From assembly GCA_030054145.1 (NCBI GenBank), contig JASGCK010000011.1, positions 3,684-67,683 of the forward strand: a stretch of DNA of 64,000 nucleotides, read 5' to 3'. Below, in pieces: positions 22,569 through 32,723 of the stretch (position 1 is its first letter; each line of letters opens with the position of its first letter). Under the pieces are notes generated by a model. The model was not told where the DNA came from and searched no databases. It was given only the letters and a program-made list of their open reading frames with translations. The translations under genes and the position numbers were made by a program. Source of the DNA: Cytophagales bacterium. Lineage in GTDB: Bacteria; Pseudomonadota; Gammaproteobacteria; Burkholderiales; Burkholderiaceae_C.

Positions 22569-24050
22569 TTAGCGCGGCAAATCGGATGCCCCCATTAAAA
22601 ACTCATCCACCGCGCGTGCAGCTTGGCGACCTTCGCGGATGGCCCACACCACAAGCGATTGCCCACGGCGCATATCGCCAGCGGCAAACACGCCTGCCAC
22701 ATTCGTTTTGTAGCCGCCGTCAAACTCGGTGGATGCTTTCGCATTGCCGCGTGCGTCTTTGTCCACGCCAAAGGCTTCTAAAACGGTAGCCACGGGATTG
22801 ACAAAGCCCATTGCGAGCAGAACGAGGTCGGCTTTGTAGGTTTGCTCAGATCCCGCCACTTCCACCATCTTGCCGTCTTTCATCTCGATACGCACCGTCG
22901 TCAGCTCAGTGACTTGGCCATCTTTGCCACTAAATGACTTGGTTGAAATCGCAAACTCGCGATCCAGCAGCCCCTTTTCTATGCCTTCGTCGTGGCTGGA
23001 GCTAGTGCGTAATTTGAGTGGCCAATACGGCCACGTCATGGGGCGATTTTCTACTTCGGGCGGCTGGGGCATCACTTCAAATTGCGTGACCGATTGTGCG
23101 CCGTGCCGAATGCTCGTGCCCACGCAGTCGCTACCCGTGTCGCCGCCGCCAATCACGATCACGTGTTTGCCATCGGCGCGGAGTTGATCTTTGAGTTTGT
23201 CGCCCGTATTGACCTTGTTTTGCTGCGGCAAAAACTCCATCGCAAAATGAATCCCCGCAAGCTCGCGTCCAGGCACAGGCAGATCACGCGACTGCTCTGC
23301 GCCGCCTGTGAGCAGCACCGCGTCAAAATCTTTTTTGAGTTGCTCGGCGCTGATAGTTTCTTTGGCCCAGTTCGTGACTTTGCTGTCTTTGGGGAAGCTG
23401 CCTATCAAAACACGGGTGCGAATCGTCACGCCCTCAGCCGTCATTTGCTCCACGCGGCGGTCGATGTGCGACTTCTCCATTTTGAAATCAGGAATGCCAT
23501 AACGCAGCAAGCCGCCTACGCGGTCGTTCTTTTCAAACAAAGTGACATCGTGACCAGCACGCGCCAATTGCTGCGCGGCCGCCATGCCCGCAGGGCCTGA
23601 GCCGACAATCGCAATCTTCTTCCCCGTCTTGTGCTTGGCGATTTGCGGCGTAACCCAGCCCTCTTGCCAAGCCTTGTCGATGATGGCGTGTTCAATCGAC
23701 TTGATGCCAACCGCGTCGTCGTTGACGTTGAGCGTGCAAGCCGCCTCGCAAGGCGCAGGACAGATGCGCCCCGTGAACTCAGGGAAGTTGTTCGTGCTGT
23801 GCAACACCGTGATCGCGTTCTTCCAATCGCCTTGGTACACGAGGTCGTTGAAATCAGGAATGATGTTGTTGACAGGGCAACCGTTATTGCAAAACGGCGT
23901 GCCGCAATCCATACAGCGTGCGGCTTGCAGCTTCGATCCCGCCTCGTCGAGGCCGATAACAAACTCTTTGTAATGCTTGAGCCGCTCTGGCACTGGCTTG
24001 TAGCCCTCTTCCAAGCGTTCGATTTCCATGAATCCTGTGATTTTTCCCAT
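22569..24050 (-). CDS. gltD: glutamate synthase small subunit
   Basis: 493 aa with the Fe-S Cys cluster '[14 protein letters not shown]' and the dinucleotide fold '[14 protein letters not shown]'. Confidence 0.95.
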
Positions 24051-24053
24051 GAT

Positions 24054-25169
24054 TTACTCTTCCTTAAATGTCAGTTTTTGATTGCTATAAAAATCTTCAA
24101 TCGCTTGGCGCTCGCGCAAAAGCTCGGTGCGCAACTCCTCTTCGGTTGGCAGTGCCAGCTTGTACTTACTGGCAAACAGTTGCTCGCTGCCGTGCAGCAC
24201 AGAATAACGAACCACCGCCTCGTCCTTGTGCGAACACAAAATAATGCCCAGCGTCGGGTTATCGGTTGCGTCCCGCTTTAGGTCGTCAAACATCCGCACA
24301 TACATATCCATTTGCCCAATGTCTTGGTGCGTGAGCTTGGTGGTCTTCAGTTCAAACAATATGAAGCACTTGAGCACGTAATGGTAGAAAACCAAATCAA
24401 TATAAAAATCTTGCGACTCCGTGCTGATGCGCTGCTGCCTGCCAATAAACGAAAAACCGCGCCCCAGCTCTAGTAAAAAGCTTTGCAGTTTGTCCATTAA
24501 AGCGGCTTCTAGGTTTGATTCCAGCAGCTTGCCCGTCTCAGGCAAACCTAAAAACTCAAGCATTACGGGATCGTGGATAAGGCTGCGGGGTAGCGCCGCC
24601 ATAGCACCTGCACTCGTTTTTTTCAAAGCTTCAGCCCGCACCGCCTGTTTGTCCGCACTAAGCACAAGGCGGTCGTAATACAAGGTGCTAATTTGACGGT
24701 CAAGCGCGCGAACACTCCAGTTTTGCTTAACCGCTTCCGCTAAATACCAAAGCCGCGCAGCTTCACTTTCGACACGTACAAGCGTGCGGTAATGCGACCA
24801 ACTCAATTCGTGACACACTGTGTCACGAATTGGAAAAGCCCTAAAAAATCCACGCATATAACGCAAATTGGATTCATCAAAACCTTTACCAAACTCTTCA
24901 GTTAAAGCTTTTGACAAGATAACAAGTAATTGTTTTCCATACAAAGCACGCGCCTCGCCCGCCTGCTCAAACTCCACAATATGCCGCCCAATTTCCCAGC
25001 AAGTTTGCACCTGCACCATATCCACAGCCCGCAAGGCGCGTTGCCTGCCGACTTGAATAAGCTCCCGCAACGCATCGATGAGCGTGGCGGGGGCTGAGAG
25101 GGTGGTGATGGTGTTGGTCACAGTAGTAAAAATAAATGGTAGTTTTGAATTCGCGACGCAGTGCGTCAC
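24054..25169 (-). CDS. DUF1016/YhcG-family PD-(D/E)XK nuclease-like protein
   Basis: N-terminal helical part 'VQTCWEIGRHIVEFEQAGEARALYGKQLL...GKGFDESNLRYMR' and a C-terminal nuclease-like core 'YIDLVFYHYVLKCFILFELK'. The start is uncertain: GTG 25169 (GTGA overlap with the cupin stop), GTG 25121 or TTG 25274. The stop lies 3 nt before the gltD ATG. Confidence 0.72.
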   Translation of the reverse strand: MTHCVANSKLPFIFTTVTNTITTLSAPATLIDALRELIQVGRQRALRAVDMVQVQTCWEIGRHIVEFEQAGEARALYGKQLLVILSKALTEEFGKGFDESNLRYMRGFFRAFPIRDTVCHELSWSHYRTLVRVESEAARLWYLAEAVKQNWSVRALDRQISTLYYDRLVLSADKQAVRAEALKKTSAGAMAALPRSLIHDPVMLEFLGLPETGKLLESNLEAALMDKLQSFLLELGRGFSFIGRQQRISTESQDFYIDLVFYHYVLKCFILFELKTTKLTHQDIGQMDMYVRMFDDLKRDATDNPTLGIILCSHKDEAVVRYSVLHGSEQLFASKYKLALPTEEELRTELLRERQAIEDFYSNQKLTFKEE

Positions 25170-25486
25170 GAATTGCGTTCTCCGCCTTTGGGTCCCCAAA
25201 ATACCACCCAAGTTACAAAATCCGAGGTGAAATTCAAAAACCGATGCTCCGCACCCGCAGGAACAAACAGGCAATCACCAGTCTGGCATTTTTCTGTAGT
25301 GCCAGCTAGATAGAAGTCGGCCTCTCCTGATTGCACAAAATAAAGTTCGTCTTGATCGTGTGGCTTTTGTGGGTCGCTTAACTTTGGGGCATAAAGTTCC
25401 ACCGACATTGAGCCGTGCGCTATGGCCTTGATAAATCGGACATCTGTAGGCAGATTGTTTAACAAAGGTTTCAAAGAAGCTTTCAT
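25166..25486 (-). CDS. cupin-domain protein
   Basis: ATG 25486 follows an AGGA RBS and gives 106 aa. Cupin motifs 'HDQDELYFVQSGEADF' and 'CLFVPAGAEHRF'. Confidence 0.7.
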   Translation of the reverse strand: MKASLKPLLNNLPTDVRFIKAIAHGSMSVELYAPKLSDPQKPHDQDELYFVQSGEADFYLAGTTEKCQTGDCLFVPAGAEHRFLNFTSDFVTWVVFWGPKGGERNS

Positions 25487-25538
25487 AGCAATTCCTGCCT
25501 TTCGCATCCGTTAATAGAGCCCAACTTGTTTGTCCAAT

Positions 25539-25673
25539 TCAATTGAGATTGTTGCCACAGTTTAGTAGCAAAGCAGCCGTGGCATCCACTTCAGCAGGCA
25601 TAAGCATGGCAAGCACCATACTGTTGTCTAGTATGGCAAGTCCCTGCGGCAGTGTTGAATAAGTTGCCACCAT
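25539..25673 (-). pseudogene. truncated PIN-domain (VapC-like) toxin remnant, 44 codons
   Basis: Not in the ORF track. The ATG shares a TAATG junction with the upstream zinc-finger antitoxin stop. The translation 'MVATYSTLPQGLAILDNSMVLAMLMPAEVDATAALLLNCGNNLN*' aligns with residues about 10-40 of the intact VapC at 26424..26852 ('LVVLDNSAALGLLLPDERGAESTAHLM'). Confidence 0.5.
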
Positions 25674-25999
25674 TACCACTTACGCCCATCGTCTTTAAGT
25701 CTCAAAATCTCAGATCGACTTAAGCGGGCACCGCCCTGCGATTGCAGTGCAGCGAGCGCTTTGATCGATTCAGCAATTTGTGCCTCGCGGTGCGATTCAA
25801 AACCTCCCTCAACGGGAATTGTTTTTTCAGCAGATGACAGAACACGACTCGTAACTTTACTCGTAAAGTAACTCTCCCCGCAGTTCTCGCACACCATTGC
25901 AGGCACATTCTTAAAAGCCACCACGCGGGCATCGCGTGCCAAAGTGAAAGTGGCGTGGGAGGAGCGGGTTTCACCCAGTTTGCAAATGACGCATTTCAT
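25673..25999 (-). CDS. YgiT/MqsA-type zinc-finger antitoxin with a VapB-like C-terminal tail
   Basis: ATG 25999 gives 108 aa. A CxxC...CxxC zinc ribbon ('MKCVICKLGE...MVCENCGESYF') and a C-terminal 45 aa similar to the Phd-type antitoxin at 26852..27121 (shared 'REAQI' and 'S..E......GRK[WY]' end). Confidence 0.62.
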   Translation of the reverse strand: MKCVICKLGETRSSHATFTLARDARVVAFKNVPAMVCENCGESYFTSKVTSRVLSSAEKTIPVEGGFESHREAQIAESIKALAALQSQGGARLSRSEILRLKDDGRKW

Positions 26000-26028
26000 A
26001 AAAGCTTCTTTTTGGTACTGAATATCAT

Positions 26029-26412
26029 CTATTGGCGGCAACTCATATCGCCTTCAACGCATTTTGTTCGTTGCTGCAACTCTTTTGTTCTTTGTATCGT
26101 TCGACCAGTTAAGCACATGACTCTCGCAACAGGGGCAAAACTTCCATCTTGAGGAGAAAAAAACTTGCAGTCCAAGTCTCTAAATTTAATCCATGCCAAT
26201 TGAACTTCTTTGAGTTGCGTTTGTGCAGTCGCGTCAAGGATTGCTTTGTACTCGTTGTAAACACCATTTAGTTGCGAGTTTGCTTTCTTAAGTTCGATAT
26301 CAGCACACTGCTGCATGTCAAGTGTGGTGTTTTGGTTTTTGCAGTTTTGTGCAAACGATGCACTTACCCAGAGCAAGAGAGATACGAGTAGAGAGTATTT
26401 TAAAAATTTCAT
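26029..26412 (-). CDS. LprI-family (DUF1311) secreted protein
   Basis: 127 aa with signal peptide 'MKFLKYSLLVSLLLWVSASFA'. DUF1311 pattern 'T.DM..C...ELKKAN..LN..Y' plus 'LAWIKFRDLDC'. Confidence 0.72.
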   Translation of the reverse strand: MKFLKYSLLVSLLLWVSASFAQNCKNQNTTLDMQQCADIELKKANSQLNGVYNEYKAILDATAQTQLKEVQLAWIKFRDLDCKFFSPQDGSFAPVARVMCLTGRTIQRTKELQQRTKCVEGDMSCRQ

Positions 26413-26423
26413 TGAATGACTCT

Positions 26424-26852
26424 CTAAATGAGTTCAATCGCAGATGCAATCGCCGCCGCTTTAAGTTGCTTATCACTCGTAGCCAGCTTGGCATTCAACC
26501 GAACCGCCAATTCCAAATACGCCGCGTCATAACCCGTCAGGCCTGAGCTTTGAGCCGTGCGCACTAGCACTTCGGGGCTTTGCTCGTCATCTAAAACTCG
26601 GATATCCAGATTTTTTATTTCTGCATACATCCAAGTTAAGTCGTCTTTTTCAATTCGCCCACGGCGTAGCGCCATATTGAGAGCATTGGCAATTTCGTAC
26701 CGCCAAAGCGCGGGGGCAATGAATTGCACGTAGGGCGCTTGCGCCATCAGATGTGCTGTGCTTTCAGCACCGCGCTCGTCGGGCAGCAACAGCCCCAGCG
26801 CCGCACTGTTATCAAGCACAACGAGAGACTTCGAACGTGGCGCAGTTGCCAT
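26424..26852 (-). CDS. vapC: PIN-domain ribonuclease toxin VapC
   Basis: 142 aa with acidic PIN residues in 'VLDNSAAL', 'YEIANAL', 'GYDAAYLELA' and 'LATSDKQL'. TAATG junction with the upstream antitoxin. Confidence 0.85.
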   Translation of the reverse strand: MATAPRSKSLVVLDNSAALGLLLPDERGAESTAHLMAQAPYVQFIAPALWRYEIANALNMALRRGRIEKDDLTWMYAEIKNLDIRVLDDEQSPEVLVRTAQSSGLTGYDAAYLELAVRLNAKLATSDKQLKAAAIASAIELI

Positions 26853-27121
26853 TAGTATTTACGCCCTTCGTTAATCCATTCTTTCCATTCGGCTTGGCTG
26901 ACGCGGGGTGTTTTAGGATCGGCATGACGCGCTTTGATACGCTCAATCGCTGCTCGAATCTGTGCTTCCCGAGGGTCTTCTTGCATGGACTCTAGCGGAG
27001 GTGAAATTCTCGCTACTGGTTTCCCGTGGCTAGTCACAGTGAAACTTTCTCCAGCGGTCGCCCGTTGGATGTAGCTCGAAAAATGCGTCCTTGCTTCGTA
27101 AACGGATAGTCGTGCTTCCAT
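26852..27121 (-). CDS. Phd/YefM-type antitoxin (VapC partner)
   Basis: 89 aa. The N-terminal 'LSVYEARTHFSSYIQRATAGESFTVTSHGKPVARI' is typical of Phd/YefM. The tail is charged. Its stop overlaps the vapC ATG. Confidence 0.8.
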   Translation of the reverse strand: MEARLSVYEARTHFSSYIQRATAGESFTVTSHGKPVARISPPLESMQEDPREAQIRAAIERIKARHADPKTPRVSQAEWKEWINEGRKY

Positions 27122-27132
27122 GATGAAATCCT

Positions 27133-27163
27133 ATTTGACTAGAATTTTTATATTTTAGTCAAA

Positions 27164-27164
<1 letters not shown>
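27133..27164 (-). promoter_or_regulatory. perfect 9-bp inverted repeat, candidate TA operator
   Basis: 'ATTTGACTA'-N14-'TAGTCAAAT' lies 12-43 nt upstream of the antitoxin ATG (27121) in a very AT-rich spacer. Its distal end overlaps the gltB stop codon. Confidence 0.4.
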
Positions 27165-31909
<4,745 letters not shown>

Positions 31910-31962: not shown

Positions 31963-32039
31963 AATTAATTGGGGACAGACCCTAATTAAATGATGTCGCC
32001 AAAGGCGAGCATTTAATTAGGGTCTGTCCCCAATTAATT
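31963..32039. repeat. REP family 1 inverted pair (perfect 30-bp arms)
   Basis: 'AATTAATTGGGGACAGACCCTAATTAAATG' (31963-31992) and its exact reverse complement (32010-32039) flank a 17-nt loop. The right arm contains the stop codon of the tyrosine transposase. Confidence 0.85.
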
Positions 32040-32723
32040 GCCGCGTGCAGGCCGTCCCGCGTTTTGTTTGATGACGCGTCTTGGCGTGGATGCTTGAATT
32101 TCGGCGGTAAAGGATTCGTCCCCTAGCGCCCAGCCTTTGAATGCGGATTCGGTAAGCAGTTTTTGTTGGTCTTGGCTAATACCTGCTAGCACCAACTCCC
32201 GATAAGCCCGTTCGCGCGAAAACGGCGTATTCCCCAGCGTCCACATCAGTTTGTGAGCAGTCACTAGCGGCTGCAGCTGCTGTCCGATATAGTGCCGATG
32301 CGTTGACCAAGCGTAATTGGCAGGGTCAGTTACCATGCCAGCGCGGACAGGATTGAGGTCAATATACGCCATGCACGCCAGTAAATAACGATCCGACTGC
32401 ACCACGGTCGATTTGTAACGCCCCTCCCACAAGGTGCCCGTATGCTTATGAAAGTAGTTGTAGCTTTGGGTATAGCGCTGCGCCAGTGACTGCATGAAGC
32501 CAGAGAGCGCTTGCTCCGTACTAGGCGTGAGCAGCAAGTGCGTGTGATTGTCCATCAGCACAAAAGCGTGAATAGCGACATCGAATTTCTGTGCGTACTC
32601 TGCCAGCCAAGCCAAATAAGCCTTGCGGTCTTCGTCGGTGTGAAAAATAACCTGCCGATTGTTCCCGCGCTGGATGATGTGATGCGGATAACCCGCAACA
32701 GAAAGCCGAGGTTGCCTAGCCAT
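32034..32723 (-). CDS. REP-associated tyrosine transposase (RAYT; IS200/IS605 Y1 family)
   Basis: 229 aa with 'YPHHIIQRGNNRQVIF', the HUH motif 'DNHTHLLL' and the catalytic Tyr region 'YIDLNPVRAGMV'. REP copies flank it on both sides. Confidence 0.85.
   Translation of the reverse strand: MARQPRLSVAGYPHHIIQRGNNRQVIFHTDEDRKAYLAWLAEYAQKFDVAIHAFVLMDNHTHLLLTPSTEQALSGFMQSLAQRYTQSYNYFHKHTGTLWEGRYKSTVVQSDRYLLACMAYIDLNPVRAGMVTDPANYAWSTHRHYIGQQLQPLVTAHKLMWTLGNTPFSRERAYRELVLAGISQDQQKLLTESAFKGWALGDESFTAEIQASTPRRVIKQNAGRPARGN

What the first reader, a model, noticed from the sequence alone, without database searches (positions are those of the whole stretch)
24054..27163. A 3.1-kb co-directional accessory islet splits the gltB-gltD operon
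gltB (stop at 27164) and gltD (start at 24050) are normally adjacent. Here six ORFs plus one gene remnant sit between them, all on the same strand and tightly packed with gaps of 0-52 nt. The last stop is only 3 nt before the gltD ATG. They are a Phd-type antitoxin, VapC, an LprI/DUF1311 secreted protein, a zinc-finger antitoxin, a vapC remnant, a cupin and a DUF1016 PD-(D/E)XK nuclease-like protein. Part of the islet (about 25.5-26.5 kb) is visibly more AT-rich than gltBD. gltD expression must depend either on read-through across TA and nuclease genes or on an internal promoter.
Basis: partly seen in the sequence, partly recalled or inferred. Interest (0 to 1): 0.6.

Follow-up and report, generated by a model that had tools for sequence, protein, structure and literature searches.

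The report
Toxin-antitoxin/defence islet splitting gltB-gltD
The two glutamate synthase genes of this bacterium are separated by a real 3.1-kb patch of toxin-antitoxin, defence-type and small accessory genes; the same spot is empty in sister species and holds differently shuffled cargo in other relatives, so it is a natural gene-swapping hotspot of a known general kind in an unusual place.

Summary
On the minus strand, between the gltB stop (27164) and the gltD ATG (24050), lie Phd-VapC, LprI, a YgiT zinc-finger antitoxin, a vapC relic, a cupin and a DUF1016/YhcG nuclease. All are co-directional, with gaps of 0-52 nt.

Four congeners have a 27-nt gltB-gltD spacer instead, inside an otherwise collinear 20 kb. 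A fifth congener and about ten metagenome contigs carry other cargo at the same site. These range from Phd-VapC alone to Phd'-cupin-AIPR. Two other genera hold unrelated inserts: a DUF4258/ZnF pair and a GIY-YIG gene.

The islet here is a mosaic. Its left part matches one allele type (Phd-VapC-LprI-ZnF) and its right part another (VapC-cupin), joined inside an antitoxin gene. DUF1016 was added in front of the old gltD spacer.

There is no integrase, attC site or flanking repeat. The intact genes are under purifying selection.

The best reading is an integrase-free toxin-antitoxin/defence spot, founded by a self-regulated Phd-VapC cassette. It is reshuffled by recombination between alleles and probably read through to gltD.

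Interest is moderate. It is a new member of a known kind.

The parts
27164..31909 (-). gltB (glutamate synthase large subunit), left flank of the islet
   Evidence: 1581-aa ORF. It is 92-94% identical in protein to congeners. The alignment to empty-site congeners resumes exactly at 27163/27164.
27122..27163 (-). Left junction: 42-nt spacer with the palindrome TTTGACTA-N14-TAGTCAAA. Probable Phd-VapC operator, overlapping a TATAAA -10-like box.
   Evidence: Inverted repeat I14 has arms at 27133-27145 and 27152-27164. The hairpin energy z-score is -4.1. The same sequence directly follows the gltB stop in L042, L163, L164 and L166. The operator and promoter roles are inferred.
26852..27121 (-). 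phd: Phd/YefM-type antitoxin, 89 aa
   Evidence: PF02604 E 2.5e-8. TIGR01552. dN/dS is 0.13-0.20. The N-terminal 69 residues are 96% identical to L166, but the C-terminal 19 are only about 37% identical, co-varying with the toxin type.
26424..26852 (-). vapC1: PIN-domain toxin, 142 aa, intact
   Evidence: PF01850 E 2.6e-6, above the cut-off. The start overlaps the phd stop (TAATG). Acidic residues D14, E53, D118 and D136 were seen by inspection. The closest relatives (95%, 89%) are also at gltB|gltD. dN/dS is 0.17.
26029..26412 (-). lprI: secreted LprI/DUF1311 protein, 127 aa; the most AT-rich gene of the islet
   Evidence: PF07007 E 1.5e-22. GC is 0.41, at the 1st percentile. An 83%-identical copy sits at the same place in L166-L168. 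dN/dS is 0.26. A weak promoter-like site lies at 26426-26397.
25673..25999 (-). Chimeric orphan antitoxin, 108 aa: YgiT-type zinc finger at the N-terminus fused at '..HREAQI..' to a Phd-like toxin-binding tail
   Evidence: TIGR03831 E 6.6e-11. Residues 1-60 are 92% identical to the 73-aa free-standing ZnF of L166. The DNA match to L166 ends at 25818. The tail 'ARLSRSEILRLKDDGRKW' resembles the Phd tail. The 23-nt junction repeat D4 is shared with the phd/vapC1 junction.
25539..25673 (-). vapC2 relic: N-terminal 44 codons, then a stop
   Evidence: The relic reads '..LAILDNSMVLAMLMPAE..', against VapC1 '..VVLDNSAALGLLLPDE..'. It gives no Pfam hit as a fragment. It has the same TAATG start overlap as vapC1.
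25487..25510 (-). vapC2 relic: last ~7 codons (..RKAGIA) abutting the cupin ATG
   Evidence: Compare G000 'cgaaaggcaggaattgctATGA' with the L042 vapC end 'gaaaaagcgggaattgcattgctATGA'. In L042 and L037 an intact vapC overlaps the cupin start in the same way.
25166..25486 (-). Small single-domain cupin, 106 aa; the most widely shared cargo gene of the site
   Evidence: PF07883 E 7.8e-12. Copies 75-79% identical lie between gltB and gltD in G005, L037, L038, L042, L043 and L044. dN is 0.15-0.19 with saturated dS, as for gltD.
25148..25175 (.). Orphan DUF1016-type palindrome (AATTCGCGACGCAGTGCGTCACGAATTG) over the cupin stop codon; a recurrent cargo junction
   Evidence: It is 86% identical to the palindrome inside the DUF1016 gene. 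These are the only two copies in the genome. It is present upstream of the gltD spacer in L042, L043, L044 and L166, which lack an intact DUF1016. In G005 only the left arm is kept and AIPR cargo follows. RNA hairpin energy is -20.7 kcal/mol, z -4.0.
24054..25121 (-). DUF1016/YhcG PD-(D/E)XK nuclease-like protein, about 355 aa from GTG 25121; candidate defence gene PDC-S02
   Evidence: PF17761 E 1e-42 and PF06250 E 7e-56. PADLOC PDC-S02 E 3e-139. The D..ELK motif was seen by inspection. There are three further paralogs in the genome. L043 keeps only its last 25 codons.
24804..24832 (.). Perfect 14+14 palindrome inside the DUF1016 coding sequence; a family-wide feature
   Evidence: The equivalent position is palindromic, with different arm sequences, in the paralogs on C19 and C5 and in 27 of 30 DUF1016 genes from other genomes.
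24051..24065 (-). gltD ribosome-binding region: AAGGAAGAG TAA ATC, i.e. the last codons and stop of DUF1016, 3 nt before the gltD ATG
   Evidence: It is homologous to the pre-gltD spacer of other alleles: L166 'aaggaaaagtaaatcATG', with 96% identity from 24065 onward. It is retained in the DUF1016-deletion allele L043.
22569..24050 (-). gltD (glutamate synthase small subunit), right flank, followed by mlaF, mlaE and mlaD
   Evidence: Fer4_20 and Pyr_redox_2 domains. mlaFED lie downstream. The alignment to empty-site congeners ends exactly at 24053.

Best explanation
**What it is.** The stretch is one allele of a hypervariable, integrase-free toxin-antitoxin/defence spot. It occupies the gltB-gltD spacer in this small-genome genus of a large Burkholderiales-type family.

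**How it was probably built.**
- A self-contained Phd-VapC cassette, with its own palindromic operator, sits immediately after the gltB stop codon. It is the likely founder.
- Further promoterless or weakly promoted genes have accumulated between it and the ancestral gltD ribosome-binding spacer. These are the cupin, LprI, a ZnF antitoxin, a second VapC, and DUF1016 or AIPR.
- Alleles are reshuffled by recombination. Some breakpoints lie between paralogous modules (vapC1/vapC2; phd and ZnF at 'REAQI'). Others lie at a DUF1016-type palindrome. The very conserved gltB and gltD presumably serve as homology arms for exchange between strains.
- This window's allele is a composite: a left part (Phd-VapC1-LprI-ZnF) fused to a right part (Phd tail-VapC2-cupin), plus DUF1016. 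VapC2 has since been destroyed, leaving an orphan antitoxin.

**How it probably works.**
- Every gene is co-directional with the operon.
- No strong terminator is present.
- The gltD Shine-Dalgarno sequence is always preserved.
- gltD is therefore most likely still transcribed from the gltB promoter through the islet, possibly supplemented by the TA promoter.
- The islet genes in turn ride on gltBD expression.

**Shown:** anatomy, variability, mosaic structure, purifying selection.
**Inferred:** founder role of the TA cassette, homologous exchange between strains, read-through transcription, toxicity, and any defence activity.
For: **Gene content and tight co-directional packing:**

**Empty site:** a 27-nt spacer in G001, G002, G004 and G006, within 20 kb of collinear synteny.

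**At least 11 other architectures at the same site:**
- Phd-VapC only (L163).
- Phd-VapC-LprI-ZnF (L166-168).
- Phd-VapC-cupin-ZnF' (L042).
- VapC-cupin (L037).
- Phd'-cupin (L044).
- GFA-cupin-DUF1016 relic (L043).
- Phd'-cupin-AIPR/AbiU-like (G005 and L038).
- Phd-VapC1 followed by a membrane protein (L164).
- DUF433 pair-GNAT-Phd-VapC (L169).
- DUF4258-ZnF-286 aa (G035, another genus).
- GIY-YIG (G028, another genus).

**Other points:**
- The left junction and operator are shared by G000, L042, L163, L164 and L166.
- A mosaic map with sharp identity breaks was obtained.
- dN/dS is 0.07-0.26 for phd, vapC1, lprI, ZnF and cupin.
- GC3 and codon use are atypical.
- No strong terminator was found, and terminator-like hits are at background level.
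- The Shine-Dalgarno sequence is retained in every allele.
- No Rfam element is present.
- The model fits published accounts of TA spots with toxin erosion (PMC13617665) and of core-gene-flanked defence hotspots (PMC10250203, PMC10121019).
Against: - Read-through is therefore unproven.
- The 13-bp hairpin at the cupin end (-20.7 kcal/mol) could attenuate transcription.
- No mobility gene or repeat explains the first insertion.
- The local-gene tree fits one gain plus one loss and two independent gains equally well. It is also built from genes that may themselves recombine.
- The defence role of DUF1016 (PDC-S02) is only a candidate annotation.
- The cupin, LprI and GFA are not defence genes, so 'defence islet' describes only part of the cargo.
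- Hotspot frequency in the wider family is low in my sample: about 4 of some 31 genomes in which both flanks could be placed.
Confidence: 0.75

Rival explanations
1. History rival. The islets of G000 and G005, and of the metagenome lineages, are independent or recent horizontal acquisitions into an ancestrally empty spacer. On this view they are not an old genus-level core that was later lost in the clade of empty species.
For: - The empty species keep a short spacer ending in '..ACATC ATG', as do out-group genera. A clean loss back to 27 nt is unusual.
- The junctions of G000 and G005 differ on both sides.
- On the tree, two gains are as parsimonious as one gain plus one loss.
- Mosaic identities point to lateral exchange: gltD is 96% identical to L166, but the left part only 86%.
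Against: - The Phd N-terminus and the cupin are homologous in G000 and G005, at the same site.
- Cupin divergence (75% nt, saturated dS) matches that of the flanking genes.
- The pre-gltD spacer of islet alleles resembles the 3' part of the empty spacer. A deletion from just after the gltB stop to that spacer is therefore also plausible.
Confidence: 0.3
2. The islet is an integron-type cassette array without an integrase (CALIN). Cassettes would be captured at attC sites and expressed from an upstream promoter.
For: - The genes are co-directional, compact and TA-rich, like chromosomal integron arrays.
Against: - Spacers are 0-52 nt, too short for attC sites.
- Apart from two short arm pairs at the vapC1-lprI boundary (I12 and I21, 13-15 nt, 80-85% complementary), the repeat search found no inverted repeats at gene boundaries other than the TA operator and the DUF1016-type palindrome.
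- Breakpoints lie inside genes: in phd codon ~70, in vapC and in ZnF codon ~60. They do not lie at cassette borders.
- No integrase lies next to the site.
Confidence: 0.03
3. Cargo is exchanged by a site-directed process at the DUF1016-type palindrome. The palindrome would form a hairpin or cruciform that is cut or bound by the DUF1016 nuclease, or be a template-switch hotspot. General homologous recombination would then not be the main route.
For: - A palindrome copy lies at the boundary between the shared part and the variable right-end cargo in G000, L042, L043, L044 and L166.
- In G005 the cargo changes exactly after the left arm.
- The palindrome inside the gene is family-wide, with co-varying arms.
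- Earlier scan notes report rearrangements clustering at such sites.
Against: - Many breakpoints are not at the palindrome: within phd, within vapC, within ZnF, and the DUF1016 deletion in L043.
- The minimal allele L163 has no palindrome.
- Upstream orphan copies are rare in other DUF1016 loci, about 2-3 of 21 loci with arms long enough to test.
- No assay of any DUF1016 protein exists. Later checks in the scan priced the 'own nuclease acts on it' idea at 6-12%.
Confidence: 0.1
4. Some of the inserted genes, especially the conserved cupin, are functional accessories of nitrogen assimilation, recruited to the gltBD operon for co-regulation. On this view they are not selfish or defence cargo.
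For: - The cupin is kept under purifying selection next to gltD in at least 7 alleles.
- GFA and GNAT enzymes also appear at the site.
- Expression from a nitrogen-regulated operon would couple them to glutamate synthesis.
Against: - Four congeners and almost all other genera do without any of these genes.
- The minimal allele has only the TA pair.
- A 64%-identical cupin homologue lies in a leucine-catabolism cluster elsewhere.
- No known role links such cupins to GOGAT.
Confidence: 0.07

Closest known systems
Chromosomal toxin-antitoxin 'spots' with acquisition, streamlining and toxin erosion (Belot et al. 2026, PMC13617665)
   Same: Small discrete regions between conserved genes that accumulate type II TA pairs. 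They show high turnover, toxin pseudogenisation that leaves orphan antitoxins (vapC2 here), and patchy distribution within a genus.
   Different: Here the spot lies inside an operon, between the genes for the two subunits of one enzyme, and everything is co-directional with that operon. No transposase or integrase is associated. TA genes are mixed with defence-type genes (DUF1016, AIPR), which that study found to be uncommon.
Core-gene-flanked defence hotspots (P. aeruginosa cDHS1/2, Johnson et al. 2023, PMC10250203; E. coli defence-island hotspots, PMC10121019)
   Same: Fixed flanking core genes and different cargo in different strains. The cargo includes candidate defence genes (PDC-S02, AbiU/AIPR-like).
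   Different: This islet is far smaller (0.7-3.1 kb, against a median of 6-26 kb). No mobile-element hallmarks were found. The flanks are an operon whose downstream gene must still be expressed across the insert.
Integron cassette arrays / CALIN
   Same: Compact, co-directional, largely promoterless genes rich in TA pairs, placed downstream of a promoter.
   Different: No attC sites and no integrase are present, and recombination breakpoints lie inside genes. Membership was tested and not met.
Other gltB|gltD insertions noted by this scan in other phyla (e1-1575912 Omnitrophota; e1-769724 CALIN; e1-1324952 and e1-3885870 HEPN pairs). These are AI notes and are treated as leads only.
   Same: TA-type cassettes wedged between gltB and gltD on the same strand, ending a few nucleotides before the gltD start.
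   Different: The lineages, TA families and, in one case, the mechanism (attC) differ. I did not re-examine those genomes.
YhcG/DUF1016 nuclease genes with their internal co-varying palindrome (scan notes e1-1210767, e1-004482 and others; not found in the searched literature)
   Same: The islet's DUF1016 gene has the palindrome at the family position (+289 nt), plus a loose copy at the gene's upstream edge.
   Different: Here the loose copy persists at the cargo junction in alleles that have lost or lack DUF1016. This ties it to the islet's rearrangement history.

Membership tests
Type II toxin-antitoxin, Phd/YefM antitoxin with VapC (PIN) toxin | Upstream small antitoxin with a Phd/YefM domain | tested here: met
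   PF02604 scores 34 bits against a 29.8 cut-off. TIGR01552 scores 32 bits against 20.8.
Type II toxin-antitoxin, Phd/YefM antitoxin with VapC (PIN) toxin | Downstream PIN-domain toxin with conserved acidic residues, translationally coupled to the antitoxin | tested here: met
   PF01850 scores 28.5 bits against a 23.6 cut-off. The genes overlap at TAATG. D14, E53, D118 and D136 were read by eye in the translation.
Type II toxin-antitoxin, Phd/YefM antitoxin with VapC (PIN) toxin | Palindromic operator in the promoter region | tested here: inconclusive
   The TTTGACTA-N14-TAGTCAAA palindrome is present and conserved in five alleles. Binding and promoter activity were not tested, and the consensus promoter scan did not call it.
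Type II toxin-antitoxin, Phd/YefM antitoxin with VapC (PIN) toxin | Toxin arrests growth and the antitoxin neutralises it | not testable with these tools
   This needs a kill/rescue assay.
MqsA-type antitoxin | N-terminal zinc ribbon plus a C-terminal HTH-XRE DNA-binding domain, paired with an MqsR toxin | tested here: not met
   Only the YgiT zinc finger matches (TIGR03831, above its cut-off). The PF15731 score is 20.3 bits, below the 30-bit cut-off, and covers profile positions 1-57 only. The tail is Phd-like and the neighbouring toxin is a vapC relic.
Integron cassette array / CALIN | attC recombination sites (about 55-140 nt imperfect inverted repeats) between cassettes | tested here: not met
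   Intergenic gaps are 0-52 nt. No attC-like repeats were found.
Integron cassette array / CALIN | Cassette-wise variation, with breakpoints at cassette borders | tested here: not met
   Breakpoints lie inside phd, vapC and the ZnF gene.
Core-gene-flanked variable TA/defence hotspot | Conserved flanking core genes with conserved synteny | tested here: met
   gltB and gltD-mlaFE flank the site in all genomes examined.
Core-gene-flanked variable TA/defence hotspot | Presence/absence and different cargo among related genomes | tested here: met
   There are four empty congeners and at least 11 other architectures.
Core-gene-flanked variable TA/defence hotspot | Cargo includes recognised or candidate defence genes | tested here: met
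   PADLOC PDC-S02 matches at E 3e-139 in G000. AbiU matches at E 7e-36 and AIPR at E 9e-45 in G005. These are HMM-level annotations only.
Classical genomic island / integrative element | Integrase or transposase, a tRNA or att site, and flanking direct repeats | tested here: not met
   There is no such gene in the islet and no boundary repeats. The RAYT-like gene upstream of gltB is syntenic in relatives, and its REP-type hairpins are not at the junctions.
DUF1016 / YhcG PD-(D/E)XK nuclease family (PADLOC PDC-S02) | DUF1016_N domain plus a YhcG_C nuclease domain, full length | tested here: met
   PF17761 matches profile positions 2-137 of 137. PF06250 matches 2-156 of 157. PDC-S02 matches 13-344 of 351.
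DUF1016 / YhcG PD-(D/E)XK nuclease family (PADLOC PDC-S02) | Anti-phage or nuclease activity | not testable with these tools
   The searched papers report no assay. PDC-S02 is a candidate system.

The most novel reading that the evidence does not exclude
The gltB-gltD junction may act as an integrase-free 'expression platform' for selfish and defence cassettes, functionally analogous to an integron.
- A founder TA pair anchors the site against loss.
- The strong, nitrogen-regulated gltBD transcript supplies expression to promoterless cargo.
- The need to keep gltD translated enforces co-orientation, the absence of terminators and a preserved Shine-Dalgarno sequence.
- The exceptionally conserved gltB and gltD serve as universal homology arms, so whole alleles move between species.

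If the similar cases noted by the scan in Omnitrophota, Poribacteria-like and other phyla are real, this would be a convergent, cross-phylum rule about where such cassettes can live.
Probability: 0.15. Interest if true: 0.7.

Novelty: new member of a known kind. Interest (0 to 1): 0.45.

Why it matters
**Unusual placement.** A variable toxin-antitoxin/defence spot can sit inside an essential metabolic operon, between the genes for the two subunits of glutamate synthase. It does so without separating them functionally, as far as sequence can tell.

**A dense allele series.** The series runs from the empty site, through TA only, to seven-gene composites. It gives a clear natural record of how such spots grow, recombine and erode:
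- module swaps inside an antitoxin gene;
- deletion between paralogous toxin genes;
- a toxin reduced to a relic, leaving an orphan chimeric antitoxin;
- the tail of a dead nuclease gene kept because it carries the next gene's ribosome-binding site.

**Practical uses.**
- The gltB|gltD junction can serve as a simple anchor for mining new small defence or TA genes in freshwater Burkholderiales.
- The site offers a testable case of TA and defence expression coupled to nitrogen status.

Tried and rejected
- **Integron/attC reading.** Rejected on spacer length, on repeats and on breakpoints lying inside genes.
- **REP/RAYT link.** A RAYT-like Y1 gene lies upstream of gltB (NCBIfam 77.4 bits, just under the 80-bit cut-off). 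However, the islet palindrome occurs only twice in the genome, both times at the DUF1016 gene. It is therefore not a REP family.
- **Operator idea for the DUF1016 palindrome.** I looked for upstream copies in 30 other loci. They are rare, so a general promoter-plus-internal operator pair is not supported.
- **32-nt imperfect direct repeat.** Copies at 24150-24181 and 27242-27273 are 75% identical and 3092 nt apart. They are not the insertion junctions. They encode the family-conserved motifs FASKYKLAL (DUF1016) and FPNEYKRAL (GltB), so I treat the match as chance resemblance.
- **Naming the organism.** The genome-contig scan with the cupin profile returned only distant cupins at 49-64% identity, in Nitrosomonas, Nitrosospira, Steroidobacteraceae and others. 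Records near the window's genome are withheld.
- **Family-wide frequency.** The 400-genome flank search listed only the first 150 matches, all of them contiguous. It did not give spacer lengths for the rest. My frequency estimate therefore rests.
- **Rfam.** No hit in the region.
- **Literature.** No paper was found on TA or defence genes between gltB and gltD, or on a palindrome in DUF1016 genes.

Full report
**1.

On the minus strand the window encodes gltB (27164-31909) and gltD (22569-24050). Between them lie seven co-directional reading frames.

| Gene | Coordinates | Evidence |
|---|---|---|
| Phd/YefM antitoxin | 26852-27121 | PF02604; TIGR01552 |
| PIN/VapC toxin | 26424-26852 | PF01850; start overlaps the phd stop as TAATG |
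| Secreted LprI/DUF1311 protein | 26029-26412 | PF07007 |
| YgiT-type zinc-finger protein | 25673-25999 | TIGR03831 |
| vapC N-terminal fragment, 44-46 codons | 25539-25673 | by comparison with VapC1 |
| Single-domain cupin | 25166-25486 | PF07883 |
| Full-length DUF1016_N + YhcG_C nuclease-like protein | 24054-25121, probable GTG start | PADLOC candidate defence gene PDC-S02, E 3e-139 |

- Gaps between genes are 42, -1, 11, 29, -1, 52 and 44 nt. The last stop is 3 nt before the gltD ATG.
- Downstream of gltD lie mlaF, mlaE and mlaD. Upstream of gltB lie a RAYT-like Y1 transposase homologue and aroB.
- Composition is atypical. Genome GC is 0.525. GC3 is 0.64 for gltB and 0.66 for gltD, but 0.41-0.55 for the islet genes. 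lprI has GC 0.41, at the 1st percentile of 877 long ORFs.

**2. It is accessory and the site is variable**

- In four species of the same genus (G001, G002, G004, G006) gltB and gltD are separated by 27 nt: TAA-tcgacatagaaatcggagctagacatc-ATG.
- Over 20 kb, three of them are collinear with the window, and their alignments stop at 24053 and resume at 27163/27164.
- In about 26 genomes of other genera of the family the spacer is 15-104 nt.

Other occupants of the same site:

| Source | Content between gltB and gltD |
|---|---|
| G005 (same genus) | 2.6 kb: truncated Phd fused to a VapC C-terminal tail; cupin 76% identical to this one; 625-aa AIPR/AbiU-like protein |
| L163 | Phd-VapC only, then 12 nt to gltD |
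| L166-L168 | Phd-VapC-LprI-ZnF (73 aa) |
| L042 | Phd-VapC-cupin-ZnF remnant |
| L037 | VapC-cupin |
| L044 | Truncated Phd-cupin |
| L043 | GFA enzyme-cupin-last 25 codons of DUF1016 |
| L164 | Phd-VapC1 (95% identical) followed by an unrelated membrane protein |
| L169 | DUF433 pair-GNAT-Phd-VapC |
| G035 (another genus) | DUF4258 toxin-ZnF antitoxin-286-aa protein, ending 13 nt before gltD; the contig breaks inside the islet |
| G028 (another genus) | 709-nt spacer with a GIY-YIG gene and repeats |

It is clearly not met.

**3. Anatomy of this allele: a mosaic**

- **Left junction.** The gltB stop is followed by TTTGACTAAAATATAAAAATTCTAGTCAAA. This junction is the same in G000, L042, L163, L164 and L166. 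It is a palindrome of the kind that serves as a TA operator, and it straddles a TATAAA box. The operator and promoter roles are inferred.
- **Segment map (blastn).**

| Window segment | Content | Best matches |
|---|---|---|
| 27300-26417 | gltB end, phd, vapC1 | 90% to L164/L165 |
| 26537-25818 | vapC 3' end, lprI, first 60 codons of ZnF | 85.6% to L166 |
| 25818-25444 | | no match in any of the eleven related loci compared |
| 25444-25132 | cupin plus a palindrome | 75-79% to six other alleles |
| 25132-24126 | DUF1016 | not found in any other allele |
| 24126 onward | DUF1016 3' end, gltD | matches L043 |
| 24065 onward | | 96% to L166 |

- **Module swap in phd.** Phd residues 1-69 are 96% identical between G000 and L166. 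The last 19 residues are only about 37% identical, and the VapC partners only 47%. The toxin-binding tail and the toxin were therefore swapped as a unit behind a constant DNA-binding head.
- **Chimeric ZnF.** The ZnF protein of G000 follows the free-standing 73-aa ZnF of L166 up to '..HRE'. It then continues with a Phd-like tail, 'AQIAESIKAL...DDGRKW' (compare Phd 'REAQIRAAIERIKA...NEGRKY'), and runs into a vapC start with the same TAATG overlap ([D4], 85).
- **VapC2 relic.** Of that second vapC, only 44 N-terminal codons and about 7 C-terminal codons (..RKAGIA, abutting the cupin ATG) remain. In L042 and L037 an intact vapC ends in the same way on the cupin start.
- **Simplest reading (inference).** An unequal exchange occurred between an L166-type allele (Phd-VapC-LprI-ZnF) and an L042-type allele (Phd-VapC-cupin), at the REAQI microhomology. 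VapC2 then decayed.
- **L037.** It looks like the reciprocal kind of event. Its vapC is 90% identical to vapC1 over most of its length but ends like vapC2 and is followed by the cupin.

**4. The right end and gltD translation**

- In L042, L044 and L166 the sequence upstream of gltD is '..aatttattgagaaaa(a/g)gaaa..atcATG'.
- The tail of the G000 DUF1016 ORF, '..caaaaactgacatttaaggaagagTAAatcATG', resembles this spacer. The nuclease ORF apparently runs into the old spacer and stops 3 nt before gltD, so that its last codons (AAGGAAGAG) are the gltD Shine-Dalgarno sequence.
- The DUF1016-deletion allele L043 has kept exactly these last 25 codons.
- The minimal allele L163 has TAAGGAAA over the vapC stop.
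- Every variant thus keeps a ribosome-binding site at the right distance. This is what selection for gltD expression predicts.
- On the coding strand the scan finds no convincing terminator. Its weak hits are at background frequency (23 found; 15.5 ± 4.1 expected). It finds one weak promoter-like site, before lprI.
- A 13-bp hairpin at the cupin end (-20.7 kcal/mol, z -4.0) lacks a U-tract but could attenuate transcription.
- Read-through from the gltB promoter, possibly helped by the TA promoter, is therefore the most likely way gltD is expressed.

**5. Age and selection**

- dN/dS is 0.07-0.26 for phd, vapC1, lprI, the ZnF head and the cupin. The intact genes are therefore maintained.
- Cupin alleles have saturated dS, like gltD between the same lineages.
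- The cupin of G005 is 75% identical in DNA, like the surrounding genes.
- A tree of GltB+GltD+MlaF+MlaE gives (out-groups,(G005,(G000,(G002,(G004,G001))))), with 99-100% support for the clade of empty species.
- This fits one old gain with one loss, or two gains. The shared Phd head and cupin favour the first; the short intact spacer of the empty species favours the second. I leave this open at about 0.6 to 0.3.
- The tree uses local genes that may recombine.

**6. What it is not**

- Not an integron array: no room for attC sites, no attC-like repeats, and breakpoints lie inside genes.
- Not a classical island: no integrase, tRNA or boundary repeats.
- Not an assembly artefact: independent contigs share the junctions.
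- Not a REP element.
- No Rfam family matches.

**7. The DUF1016 palindrome (side finding)**

- The DUF1016 gene contains a perfect 14+14 palindrome at 24804-24832. A near copy (24 of 28) overlaps the cupin stop at 25148-25175. These are the only two copies in the genome.
- The paralogs on C19 and C5 have palindromes with different arm sequences at the same codon position.
- So do 27 of 30 DUF1016 genes drawn from 150 genomes of the class, at +262 to +338 nt. The encoded peptide changes to keep the symmetry.
- This agrees with many earlier notes of this scan. I found nothing on it in the searchable literature.
- Locally, the orphan copy marks the boundary of the variable right-end cargo in five alleles, and G005 switches cargo right after its left arm.
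- Many other breakpoints lie elsewhere, so I rate palindrome-directed exchange as a minor rival (0.1).

**8. Comparison with what is known**

- The closest descriptions are chromosomal TA spots with high turnover and toxin erosion (PMC13617665) and core-gene-flanked defence hotspots (PMC10250203, PMC10121019).
- This case shares their defining features: fixed core flanks, variable cargo, TA and defence-type genes.
- It differs in three ways. It is tiny, it lacks mobile-element hallmarks, and it lies inside an operon whose downstream gene encodes the partner subunit of the upstream one.
- I found no paper describing inserts between gltB and gltD.
- Earlier AI notes of this scan list similar inserts in other phyla. 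I treat those as leads only.

**9. Verdict**

- The thing is a new member of a known kind, a variable TA/defence spot, with an unusual intra-operon position and an informative allele series.
- Interest is 0.45.
- The boldest reading not excluded is that gltB|gltD is a convergent, integrase-free expression platform for such cassettes. I give it about 0.15.

Noticed in passing
window 24804-24832; G000 C19 ~251.4 kb and C5 ~55.9 kb; loci L125-L154: DUF1016/YhcG genes carry a palindrome at one fixed codon position, just before the LSW(S/T)H motif, about +290 nt from the start. The arm sequences differ between genes and the peptide changes to keep the symmetry. It was seen in 3 G000 paralogs and in 27 of 30 genes from other genomes. 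It matches many earlier notes of this scan and was not found in the searched literature.
   Followed up: partly
window 25148-25175; L042 1885-1915; L043 711-738; L044 1211-1238; L166 2097-2127: An orphan copy of the DUF1016-type palindrome lies at the boundary of the variable right-end cargo in several alleles, including alleles with no intact DUF1016. In G005 only the left arm remains, and the AIPR segment starts after it.
   Followed up: partly
window 26852-27121 vs L166 753-1022: Modular antitoxin evolution. The Phd DNA-binding head is 96% identical between two alleles. The 19-residue toxin-binding tail (~37% identical) and the VapC partner (47% identical) are swapped together.
   Followed up: partly
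window 25673-25999: Chimeric antitoxin: a YgiT zinc-finger head joined at '..HREAQI..' to a Phd-like toxin-binding tail. It is now an orphan because its vapC partner is reduced to two fragments.
   Followed up: partly
window 32034-32723; L164 119-817: A RAYT-like Y1 (IS200-type) transposase homologue sits between aroB and gltB. NCBIfam REP_Tyr_transpos scores 77.4 bits against an 80-bit cut-off. It is syntenic in a related metagenome contig, and the region aligns at only 64-73% identity in the congeners, so it looks like a resident, possibly domesticated gene.
   Followed up: partly
L030 (G028) 1075-1783: In another genus the gltB-gltD spacer holds a 96-aa GIY-YIG nuclease gene. It is flanked by repeats that translate as 'IPAQAGI/IPACAGMT', typical of a small repeat family.
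   Followed up: no
L035 (G035) 158-1528: In another genus a DUF4258 toxin, a 75-aa ZnF antitoxin whose sequence resembles this window's ZnF head, and a 286-aa protein with no Pfam hit lie directly upstream of gltD. The contig breaks inside the islet.
   Followed up: partly
L039 6001-6342: A 64%-identical homologue of the islet cupin lies inside a leucine/isovalerate catabolism cluster (acyl-CoA dehydrogenase, carboxylase subunits, enoyl-CoA hydratase) of a Burkholderiales MAG. This hints at the family's native metabolic context.
   Followed up: no
G033 contigs C2 and C22: One genome of the family has two sets of matches to the gltB 3' and gltD 5' flanks. A second gltBD copy is therefore likely.
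   Followed up: no
G000 C19 250.7-251.9 kb: The DUF1016 paralog on C19 follows a gene ending like a type I restriction HsdS subunit. This is the usual type I R-M association of this family.
   Followed up: no
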